Source: Octopus vulgaris
Taxonomy: Eukaryota
Direction: 5' to 3'
DNA: 64,000 nt
Assembly: GCA_951406725.2 (NCBI GenBank)
Contig: OX597842.1
Span: 18,786,001 to 18,850,000 of the forward strand
Position numbers: made by a program. This document shows, piece after piece, positions 12,378-14,420 of this stretch. The stretch's first letter is position 1. Each line of letters begins with the position of its first letter.

Positions 12378-14420
12378 CGGAGATGTACTCGCATAGCAAG
12401 TAATTTGATCTGAGATCGTGTGCTGAAACGAAAACAATTGCAGCGTGGAAGGTGTTTATAAGTCATTTAAGAAACACACAAAAGCCGTTCGATTCACTTC
12501 AACATTTAAGTTTAATTTGTCAAAATATTTTCGTCGCTAAAATCCGCGACCTGTTCACTGACAAAAATCCGTGCTGCATCTAAATATGTTTATATATATT
12601 TTATGATATGCTTAATAATTCACAAAAAATATTGAAAAGGATAACGAAAATGAAAAAGAAAATTAAAGGAATATATAATTATACACACATTGAAAGATAC
12701 AAATATATACACAAGCACACACTGATAAACATAACACCAAACATTGATGTAAACCAGAAACACTCATCTTCTCACATACTGTCGCACACATCTGTAGAAA
12801 GAATTCGAGTTAGAGAAGGACAAAGAGAGATGGGAAGAAAAAATATGTTCAGAAATATGGAGTATAAATAGTATCAGCAATATCGATCCGACTTACAAGG
12901 TGTTTACTCTGGTAACGTTTACGAAGGAATTTTGTTCGATTTTCGAGATTTCATTTCTGGCCAAATCTCTGTGAGATACAAGAGAATTGTTTAGAATTAG
13001 CAAAGAACAGATTTGTAATAAAATATGAATTATAATATCTAATAAATATCTAATAATATAATAAATATCTAATAATAATATAATATCTCATAAATTAGAT
13101 GCTGAAATAGAAGGAAAAGAATCAGAAGAGAAAGTACCAGTTGAGAGCGTAGGGATGATAATACTGATGATGATGATGATGATGATGATGATGGTGGGGG
13201 GGATGGTGGTGATGGTGGTAGTAGCGATGGTGGTGGTGTTGGTGGTGGTGATGGTGGTAGTTGCGATGGTGGTGATGGTGGTGGTGGTACTGGTGGTGGT
13301 GGTGGTAGTGGTGGTGGTGGTATTAGTAATGATGGTGATTATGTGGTTGTGTGGGCTTTGACATTGCTGATAATGTTGATCATAGTGGGATTGCTGCCAA
13401 CGATGGTGATAACATCACTGTTGATAATGATAATGATGATTATAAGGATGATGTTAACATAAGTAATTATTAGTATAGATAAGGATTAATAATCATAATC
13501 CTGAAAAGAAAATGGTAATGGTTATGATGAAGATGATCCTGGTGATTATGATGATAATCATAATTGCATAGATCCTAATAGAAATATTTGTGAGTATATG
13601 TGTATATATGTGTATATATGTGTCTGACTGCATGCGTTTGTGTTCGTCTATCAGGTCATCCCATAAGTTCTGTCCGATTTTACATCTTTTAAAATTGAAT
13701 GGAATTTAATAATAAATTAGAATGTCTAATGGAATTAACATTATTTTTATACATTTGTGTACATTTAAACTAATTGAATATTACTTTACAGAATAATAGA
13801 AATAAAATTTCGTTAATTAAAATCCTTTCTAACATTGAAGTATCCAACGAGTATTTAAGACACACAATGCTTTATGAGTACAAAAAGGGAAATTCTGCAG
13901 CCGAAGCGACTCGAAACATACACTCAATTTATGGGAAAGAATGCTTGAATGAAAGAACTTGGTTTGCAAAATTCAGAAGTGGAGATTTAAGCCTTGAAGA
14001 TGAAGAAAGTCTCCTATATGAAATGTGTTAGTGTTGTAAGATGTATGTATTTAGCATTTTCAAAGACAGTCTCTAAATATAATTCTTTTAAAATGTTTCA
14101 GTATAAAGGCGTTGATAAAGAATATCCACAATGCTATTTCATAAAGCAAGATAGTTAAATTTATTCAGTAGTGTAATGAGGCATAGTTTTTCGTATAAAA
14201 TGAGTCCAAATGCAAAATCGCATATGTGTGTGCATGTGTATATATCTTTCAATGTGTGTATAATTATATATTCCTTTAATTTTCTTTTTCATTTTCGTTA
14301 TCCTTTTCCGTCTTTTTTTGTGAATTATTAAGCATATCATAAACCACCTTTATTACTCTTCCAAATCGGTTGGCTATTTTCAGTCAGAATGATCATGGGA
14401 CTGTCACATTGAGTTGACTA

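What the first reader, a model, noticed from the sequence alone, without database searches (positions are those of the whole stretch)
12600..14342. Intact LRR exon parked antisense in a 1.6-kb inversion flanked by ~120-bp inverted repeats
12601-14224 is the reverse complement of the F-G-intron/G-exon region (compare 26026-27682). The sequence then resumes forward at the equivalent of ~27562, so 12601-12720 and 14226-14342 are inverted copies of each other. The exon, acceptor and donor are undamaged. Recombination between the arms would flip the exon back into sense as the first LRR, which would make it an invertible cassette (inference). The arms could also pair in pre-mRNA.
Basis: partly seen in the sequence, partly recalled or inferred. 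Interest (0 to 1): 0.75.

Follow-up and report, generated by a model that had tools for sequence, protein, structure and literature searches.

The report
Flipped spare exon in octopus-type receptor gene
One leucine-rich-repeat exon of an octopus-type receptor gene lies backwards inside the first intron, most likely left there by a single old rearrangement and not by a DNA switch, so it is a structural curiosity.

Summary
Window 12600-14229 is the reverse complement of the intron/G-exon unit at 26001-27684, and of a third copy at 41120-42516. It is bracketed by inverted arms at 12600-12722 and 14226-14343. It carries a 72-nt LRR exon (12897-12968, minus strand) with AG acceptor and GTAAGT donor.

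The gene has exon 1 (signal peptide + LRRNT, 9402-9592) followed by 19 sense 72-nt LRR exons. Its relatives are Octopus LRR proteins, one of which carries a GPS motif (adhesion-GPCR type).

The "invertible cassette" reading is not supported:
- The arms are no more alike than each is to its paralogues.
- No recombinase gene or RSS-like site is present.
- The exon's intactness fits neutral expectation (P = 0.29).
- The left flank is a further mosaic (a truncated exon C and a second inverted repeat), so more than one event occurred.

Undoing the flip would restore a G-A intron of 998 nt, against 1003 and 1024 nt in the sense copies. That points to an in-place inversion with a 123-nt staggered break, about as old as the local duplications. 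The exon now sits inert in intron 1.

Assembly error cannot be excluded without reads. Interest is low to moderate.

The parts
9402..9592 (+). Exon 1: start codon, signal peptide, LRRNT and first residues of LRR1. It ends with 2 bases of a split codon; the donor is gtaagt.
   Evidence: Sequence read. Pfam LRRNT E=2e-4, below the curated cut-off. It aligns over residues 1-63 with the N-termini of Octopus LRR proteins.
11839..12118 (+). Copy of the 3' end of the B-C intron plus the first 22 nt of exon C (about 12097-12118). Exon C is truncated here.
   Evidence: blastn: 11839-12118 matches 21184-21466 (96.8%), and 11839-12192 matches 45489-45843 (97.7%).
12117..12375 (+). Copy of a piece of the C-D intron, ending in (TA)n at 12321-12375.
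   Evidence: blastn: matches 22418-22681 (93.9%) and 34608-34868 (91.7%). TRF.
12430..12609 (-). Inverted copy of the B-C intron piece. It forms a second inverted repeat with 11906-12056.
   Evidence: blastn: reverse complement of 21224-21404 (84.6%). 12430-12581 vs 12056-11906 is 88.9% over 153 nt.
12600..12722 (.). Left inverted arm (reverse complement of the G-A intron positions equivalent to 27562-27684).
12600..14229 (-). Inverted G unit: 3' 1.26 kb of the F-G intron, exon G, and the first 297 nt of the G-A intron.
12897..12968 (-). Antisense 72-nt LRR exon G (DLARNEISKIEQNSFVNVTRVNT), with AG acceptor and GTAAGT donor kept.
   Evidence: Pfam LRR_8 E=0.072 for this single repeat.
14226..14343 (.). 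Right inverted arm (forward copy of the 27562-27684 equivalent, with a 6-nt deletion in a TG/TA run).
15045..15116 (+). First sense LRR exon (type A). It is the likely splice partner of exon 1, which makes 9593-15044 intron 1.
   Evidence: The phases match. Splicing itself is inferred, not shown.
26001..27684 (+). Sense G unit, copy 2 (exon at 27316-27387).
41120..42516 (+). Sense G unit, copy 3 (exon at 42141-42212).

Best explanation
The window holds the 5' part of a gene of the Octopus-expanded LRR / adhesion-GPCR-like family: exon 1, then a tandemly duplicated array of one-repeat 72-nt exons. In the first array unit the G-exon unit (about 1.6 kb) was inverted once in the germ line. The right-hand break was staggered over 123 nt and filled in, and that created the inverted arms. 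The event belongs to the same period as the segmental duplications that made the array. It sits next to at least one other rearrangement (truncated exon C and a second inverted repeat). The inverted exon cannot be spliced into the sense mRNA. It is an inert pseudo-exon in the 5.4-kb intron 1, and transcripts most likely go from exon 1 to exon A at 15045. It still looks intact only because too little time has passed for it to decay. Shown: the structure, the identities, the divergence pattern and the family relationship. Inferred: the break mechanism, the splicing path and the lack of function.
For: (1) Structure and coordinates. (2) Conceptual re-inversion restores collinearity on the right. 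The G-A intron becomes 998 nt, against 1003 (copy 2) and 1024 (copy 3). The order G then A matches a relative in which a G-like repeat (16 of 23 identical) is followed by an A-like repeat (P0031). (3) An inversion flanked by an inverted duplication of locally unique sequence is the published signature of staggered breaks: 17 of 29 Drosophila inversions in PMC1885836 (passages read). (4) Age: the three G units are equidistant. Private substitutions are inverted copy 20, copy 3 20, and copy 2 17 outside its microsatellite (a further 93 lie inside 26776-27155), over 1168 identical columns. The arms differ at about 4 of 101 clean positions. (5) Neutrality: 1.23 private changes are expected in 72 nt and 0 are seen, P(0)=0.29. 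Exon against flank: 1 of 72 versus 10 of 367. (6) It is the only antisense LRR exon. Of the 25 rows in the scan, 19 are distinct sense LRR exons, 1 is antisense, 3 are alternative 66-nt donors of B exons, and 2 (9053, 63440) are non-LRR chance matches that I set aside. tblastn with three relatives gives no other credible minus-strand hit. (7) The copy is not a chimera of the sense copies, because it carries its own 20 private substitutions.
Against: The left side does not fit a simple two-break inversion. The flank left of 12600 is not the F exon / F-G intron. It is an inverted B-C intron piece, after about 18 nt of AT-rich filler. Both junctions lie in short TA/TG low-complexity runs, where assemblers also err. 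No reads, no second individual and no related genome could be examined, so neither the reality of the arrangement nor its fixation is shown. Four private substitutions cluster in the acceptor's polypyrimidine tract (P=0.0003 for that 20-nt window, 0.008 for any 11-nt window). That is more than plain neutral decay predicts. A second cluster of four at 13739-13744 suggests multi-nucleotide mutation events or local misalignment.
Confidence: 0.6

Rival explanations
1. Assembly artefact: the inverted block or its junctions are a mis-join in a microsatellite-rich, tandemly duplicated region, and the real locus has no antisense exon here.
For: Both junctions lie in TA/TG-type low complexity. The window has a 100-N gap at 45844-45943 directly after a stretch 97.7% identical to 11839-12192. 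The array is full of 93-99% identical units. The 19 sense repeats exceed the 8-14 or so repeats in the relatives I read.
Against: The inverted copy has 20 private substitutions and is equidistant from both sense copies, so it is a separate genomic paralogue and not a re-used read. A mis-join through an overlap needs the shared sequence in the same orientation at the join. At 14225/14226 the two sides share nothing. There are no Ns at either junction.
Confidence: 0.2
2. Duplicative origin: a replication template switch (FoSTeS/MMBIR-like) copied a G unit from another array unit in reverse and then resumed forward. On this view it is an inverted insertion and not an in-place inversion.
For: Three adjacent orientation changes within 2.4 kb (forward p-q, reverse p, reverse G unit, forward again) look like serial template switches. 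There is filler at the left junction. Within the arm, the left arm shares its variable sites with copy 2 and the right arm with copy 3, but only a handful of sites are informative.
Against: It would need the insertion to land exactly where the resident G exon was lost, so that the G-A intron length is kept (998 vs 1003/1024). Over the whole unit the inverted copy is not closer to either sense copy.
Confidence: 0.1
3. One reading: a reversible DNA cassette. Recurrent recombination between the arms flips G between antisense (off) and sense (first LRR), somatically or as a population polymorphism.
For: Inverted arms bracket a splice-competent exon, with a 66-nt perfect block. All LRR exons share one phase, so insertion stays in frame. 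The family varies in repeat number, and many predicted isoforms are named.
Against: The arms show no concerted evolution. There is no recombinase or transposase ORF; only reverse-transcriptase fragments more than 38 kb away. No RSS-like motif lies at the junctions: the 3 matches in the window are one paralogous site at 19134, 28586 and 43432, and the 23-spacer pattern has 0 matches. About 100 nt at 96% is a poor substrate for homologous exchange (general knowledge, not tested). No programmed exon inversion of this kind is known to me in animals (recall). In relatives the G-like repeat sits in mid-array and is not first.
Confidence: 0.03
4. RNA-level role: the antisense G unit in intron 1 pairs with the sense G units (or the two arms pair with each other) in the pre-mRNA. 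That would give long dsRNA that draws ADAR editing, small-RNA production or altered splicing.
For: 448 nt ungapped at 97.5% complementarity to copy 2, including the whole exon. The arms co-fold at -154.2 kcal/mol, against -31.3 +/- 4.6 for 100 shuffles. Cephalopods edit neural transcripts very heavily, and editing needs dsRNA (PMC5705066, passages read). Relatives of this family were reported enriched in octopus nervous tissue (PMC6408891, passages read).
Against: The sense partners lie 14.3 and 29.2 kb downstream, so intron 1 would normally be removed before they are transcribed (inference). The nearer arm-arm stem is wholly intronic. There is no sign of constraint on the inverted copy. No expression or editing data could be examined.
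Confidence: 0.07

Closest known systems
Inversions flanked by inverted duplications from staggered breaks (Ranz et al. 2007, PMC1885836)
   Same: An inverted segment with an inverted duplicate of locally unique sequence at a breakpoint. The arms are a by-product of the event and not its cause. There is no repeat-mediated exchange.
   Different: The scale is 1.6 kb inside one intron, not chromosomal. A duplication is visible at one end only. The other end abuts a further rearranged mosaic. No outgroup is available to show the ancestral state.
Octopus-specific expansion of adhesion GPCRs, some with LRR N-termini (Ritschard et al. 2019, PMC6408891, group 3)
   Same: Exon 1 and the LRR exons match Octopus proteins named decorin-like, chaoptin, slit-like and adhesion GPCR G6-like. 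One relative (P0017) has a GPS motif, Pfam E=9e-11.
   Different: The window holds only exon 1 and LRR exons. No LRRCT, Cys-rich, GPS or 7TM part is in the window. I did not match the gene to any entry in that paper.
Prokaryotic invertible DNA switches, yeast 2-micron FLP, V(D)J inversional joining
   Same: Inverted repeats bracket a functional module whose orientation would decide its use.
   Different: There is no recombinase, no recognition motif, diverged arms, and no evidence for the second orientation.
Lamprey/hagfish VLR loci (LRR cassettes in both orientations copied into an incomplete gene) - recalled, not from a call
   Same: Many near-identical 24-residue LRR modules lie next to an LRRNT-encoding exon, one of them reversed.
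   Different: Here every module is an ordinary exon with splice sites, and 19 of 20 are in sense. Relatives are ordinary spliced proteins. The source is a mollusc-type genome.
Intronic editing complementary sequences / inverted-repeat ADAR substrates
   Same: An intronic reverse copy of an exon in the same transcription unit.
   Different: Known complementary sequences usually lie close to their exon. Here the distance is 14-29 kb, and no editing was observed or could be tested.

Membership tests
Staggered-break inversion with inverted duplication | A segment reversed relative to the paralogous (proxy for ancestral) order | tested here: met
   12600-14229 is the reverse complement of 26001-27684 and of 41120-42516.
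Staggered-break inversion with inverted duplication | Inverted duplicate of sequence that is single-copy within the unit, placed at the two ends of the inverted segment | tested here: met
   The arms 12600-12722 and 14226-14343 both correspond to 27562-27684.
Staggered-break inversion with inverted duplication | Undoing the inversion restores collinearity on both sides | tested here: inconclusive
   Right side is met: G-A intron 998 vs 1003/1024 nt. Left side is not met: the flank is an inverted B-C intron piece and not F-G intron.
Staggered-break inversion with inverted duplication | An outgroup or other haplotype carries the uninverted state | not testable with these tools
   No eukaryotic genome or read collection was on hand.
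Programmed invertible DNA switch | Inverted repeats bracketing the module | tested here: met
Programmed invertible DNA switch | Recombinase encoded nearby, or a known recognition motif at the crossover sites | tested here: not met
   Among the non-microsatellite ORFs, two match RVT_1 and one weakly matches PHD. RSS-like 12/23 patterns are absent from both junctions. A recombinase encoded elsewhere in the genome cannot be excluded.
Programmed invertible DNA switch | Arms kept alike by repeated exchange | tested here: not met
   The arms are no closer to each other than to their paralogues. Few sites are informative.
Programmed invertible DNA switch | Both orientations present in DNA from one organism or population | not testable with these tools
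   No reads were available.
Octopus LRR / adhesion-GPCR-like family | Signal peptide + LRRNT + run of typical 24-residue LRRs homologous to family members | tested here: met
   Exon 1 is 57-64% identical to P0001/P0002 over 63 residues. Exon F matches 22 of 23, E 20 of 23 and C 17 of 23 to P0002; G matches 16 of 23 to P0031. Searched exon by exon only.
Octopus LRR / adhesion-GPCR-like family | C-terminal LRRCT/Cys-rich module, GPS motif and 7TM | tested here: not met
   tblastn of P0002, P0031 and P0017 finds nothing beyond the LRRs in the window. The 3' part may lie beyond the window or the gap, so membership of the GPCR branch stays open.
VLR-type cassette assembly | Donor cassettes without splice sites, in mixed orientation, around an incomplete germ-line gene | tested here: not met
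   All 20 LRR modules have an AG acceptor and GT donor with polypyrimidine tracts, and 19 of 20 are in sense.
ADAR substrate / editing complementary sequence | Stable dsRNA between the exon and an intronic complement in the same transcript | tested here: inconclusive
   Complementarity is present (448 nt at 97.5%). The arm duplex is -154 kcal/mol. Co-existence in one RNA molecule, and editing itself, were not testable.

The most novel reading that the evidence does not exclude
The reversed G unit is not dead weight. It is a built-in antisense partner: in the primary transcript it pairs with the two sense G units (448 nt at 97.5% around the exon). In an octopus nervous system, with its very high ADAR activity, this would hyper-edit or silence specifically the G repeat of this receptor. 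That would give a repeat-specific, RNA-level source of LRR diversity created by a DNA micro-inversion.
Probability: 0.06. Interest if true: 0.65.

Novelty: new member of a known kind. Interest (0 to 1): 0.25.

Why it matters
As it stands, this is a small, well-resolved example of how tandem exon arrays are scrambled. An exon was removed from a receptor's repeat array by inversion and not by deletion, with the break signature still legible. It would matter more in two cases. If the orientation proved variable, it would be an animal DNA switch for a receptor repeat. If the antisense copy drove editing or silencing of the sense G exons in a cephalopod neural receptor, it would link a structural variant to RNA-level diversification. 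It also flags a region where the assembly should be checked before the gene's repeat number is taken at face value.

Tried and rejected
- A word-index protein search with exon 1 (longer lengths) found nothing. The full HMMER scan was needed to find relatives.
Names came only from the listing.
- Rfam at gathering thresholds gave 0 matches in the whole window.
- RSS-like heptamer/nonamer patterns with 12- and 23-nt spacers gave nothing at the junctions.
- A single two-break staggered inversion covering both inverted repeats was considered and rejected. The model requires the reversed copy of the left duplicate to lie next to the right arm, but the observed order is p, q, reverse p, reverse G unit, arm.
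- A transposon with terminal inverted repeats was considered for 11906-12581 and rejected. The arm is ordinary B-C intron sequence contiguous with the start of exon C.
- Selection on the inverted exon was tested. No signal was found either way.
- The first three-way alignment was misleading at its left end, where non-homologous copy-3 sequence had been included, and in the microsatellite. It was redone on the homologous span.
- The alignment overstates right-arm differences (12-13 of 123), because a 6-nt indel in a TG/TA run shifts its first 24 or so columns.
So no related locus, second haplotype or read evidence was examined.
- Supplements of PMC6408891 (tables S2 and S3, gene lists and domains) were not opened. 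They might name this gene.

Full report
WHAT IS THERE. The window is eukaryotic and very rich in simple repeats. A 141-bp satellite fills 1-9019. GC is about 31% over the gene and 13-20% in the TA/TG microsatellite blocks at 46-62 kb.

An exon at 9402-9592 (+) encodes a start codon, a signal peptide and an LRRNT (Pfam E=2e-4, below the curated cut-off). It ends in a gtaagt donor with two bases of a split codon.

A scan for AG-[72 nt]-GT open frames with the LRR start pattern printed 25 rows:
- 19 are distinct sense LRR exons between 15045 and 44776.
- 1 is antisense (12897-12968).
- 3 are alternative 66-nt donors of the B exons.
- 2 (9053, 63440) are not LRRs, and I set them aside.

All LRR exons share one phase, so any combination stays in frame. 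Self-comparison shows the array was built by segmental duplications of 91-99% identity.

THE GENE FAMILY. I searched exon by exon. The joined (spliced) model was not built or searched.
- A word-index search with exon 1 found nothing.
- A full HMMER scan found 30 relatives at E<=0.001, 5 of them at E<=1e-10. The best are P0001 (57% identity) and P0002 (64%), both over the whole 63 residues.
- A search with P0002 listed 120 of 794 hits. Of its 26 best rows, 24 carry Octopus names (O. bimaculoides, O. sinensis, O. vulgaris) such as decorin-like, chaoptin, slit-like and adhesion G-protein coupled receptor G6-like. The other 2 show no species.
- One relative (P0017) has a GPS motif (Pfam E=9e-11).
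- This fits the octopus-specific adhesion-GPCR expansion in which 5 of 22 sequences carry LRRs (PMC6408891, passages read).
- P0002 has the repeat order exon 1-B-C-D-E-F-A. P0031 has a G-like repeat (16 of 23 identical) after an E/F-like repeat and before an A-like one.
- No C-terminal part of the family is in the window.

THE OBSERVATION.
- 12600-14229 is the reverse complement of 26001-27684 and of 41120-42516.
- From 14226 the sequence runs forward from the equivalent of 27562.
- So 12600-12722 and 14226-14343 are inverted arms: 96% over 101 nt, 91% over 124 columns, longest perfect run 66 nt.
- The exon has the same peptide as both sense copies and one synonymous difference from each.

The left flank is itself rearranged:
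- 11839-12118 copies the end of the B-C intron plus only the first 22 nt of exon C.
- 12117-12375 jumps to a piece of the C-D intron.
- After a (TA)n run, 12430-12609 is a reversed copy of the B-C intron piece.

This gives a second inverted repeat (153 nt, 89%) immediately left of the inverted G block. The same truncated-C junction recurs at 45489-45843 (97.7%), right before the N gap. At the left junction, about 18 nt of AT-rich filler separates the two homologies. So more than one event shaped intron 1, and I could not fit everything to one two-break model.

AGE AND SELECTION.
- On the homologous span, private substitutions number 20 (inverted copy), 20 (copy 3) and 17 (copy 2 outside its microsatellite; 93 more lie inside it), against 1168 identical columns. 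This is a star pattern, so the inverted copy dates from the same burst as the sense duplicates.
- 1.23 private changes are expected in the 72-nt exon and none is seen, P=0.29. Exon against flank is 1 of 72 versus 10 of 367. Intactness is therefore no evidence of selection.
- Against a purely neutral picture, four private changes cluster in the polypyrimidine tract (P=0.0003 for that window). A similar cluster of four lies at 13739-13744. Multi-nucleotide events or local misalignment are the likely cause.

MECHANISM. Undoing the flip gives a G-A intron of 998 nt, against 1003 and 1024 in the sense copies, and restores the G-A order seen in a relative. That is what an in-place inversion with a break staggered over 123 nt predicts. 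This is the model proposed for inversions flanked by inverted duplications (PMC1885836, passages read). A template-switch origin remains possible.

THE SWITCH IDEA.
- In the clean 101 nt the arms differ at 4 positions. The left arm differs from copy 2 at 3, and the right arm from copy 3 at 2 plus one indel (read; one search gives whole-arm counts, inflated for the right arm by a shifted indel). Hence there is no concerted evolution, though the sites are few.
- Of the three non-microsatellite ORFs scanned, two match reverse transcriptase and one weakly matches PHD.
- RSS-like motifs are absent from the junctions.
- Nothing supports recurrent flipping, but without reads it is not excluded.

RNA LEVEL. 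The arms would co-fold at -154 kcal/mol (shuffles -31 +/- 5). The antisense unit is 97.5% complementary over 448 nt to copy 2. Cephalopods edit neural RNAs heavily, and editing needs dsRNA (PMC5705066, passages read). But the sense partners lie 14-29 kb downstream of an intron that should be spliced out earlier. This is my boldest reading that the evidence does not exclude, at low probability.

ARTEFACT RISK. Both junctions lie in low-complexity runs within a repeat-rich array that has an assembly gap. Against an artefact, the inverted copy has its own substitutions, and the 14225/14226 join shares no overlap. I put this risk at about 0.2.

UNCHECKED.
- Reads, other haplotypes or species, and expression data.
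- The closed collections.
- Supplements of PMC6408891.
- Literature: I ran three searches. I read passages of three papers and only the listings of the rest. I make no claim that such an exon inversion is absent from print.

VERDICT. This is a real-looking but ordinary structural relic.

Noticed in passing
1-9019: 141-bp satellite, 64 copies at 95% identity, with a strong C-over-G skew (about -0.6). It ends about 380 nt upstream of the gene's start codon.
   Followed up: partly
19965-20262 (+), 29346-29705 (+), 44350-44700 (+) versus 23317-23621 (-), 35514-35818 (-), 30611-30734 (-): A roughly 300-bp element sits upstream of every B exon and, inverted, downstream of every D exon (91-94% complementary). 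The intron pairs therefore bracket exons B-C-D and could pair in RNA. An 85-nt piece of the element also flanks a 2-kb TA microsatellite at 59234-59319 (+) and 61295-61378 (-), so it is probably transposon-derived.
   Followed up: partly
about 12097-12118 and about 45748-45770: Exon C is cut to its first 22 nt and fused to C-D intron sequence at the same junction in two places that are 97.7% identical. The second copy runs straight into the N gap.
   Followed up: partly
11906-12056 / 12430-12581: A second inverted repeat (153 nt, 89%) in intron 1, directly left of the inverted G block. It is made of B-C intron sequence. Its origin is not explained by one event.
   Followed up: partly
14491-19240: Exon A and its intron are triplicated in tandem (periods 2048 and 1847 nt, 94-96% identity). 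One copy (17093) has a gtaatt donor and another (18939) gtaaat, where the other A copies have gtaagt.
   Followed up: no
45844-62000: A 100-N gap is followed by about 16 kb of nearly pure TA/TG/CT microsatellite (GC 13-20%), interrupted by non-LTR reverse-transcriptase fragments (53545-54261 minus strand; 61946-64000 minus strand, RVT_1 E=8e-31). No further exon of the gene was seen.
   Followed up: partly
10039-10476: A 217-bp unit is present twice in tandem (94%) in intron 1, with no other copy in the window. It is possibly a dispersed repeat of the host genome; this was not identified.
   Followed up: no
12977-12987 and 13739-13744: Two tight clusters of four substitutions each, private to the inverted copy. 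The first lies in the acceptor polypyrimidine tract.
   Followed up: partly
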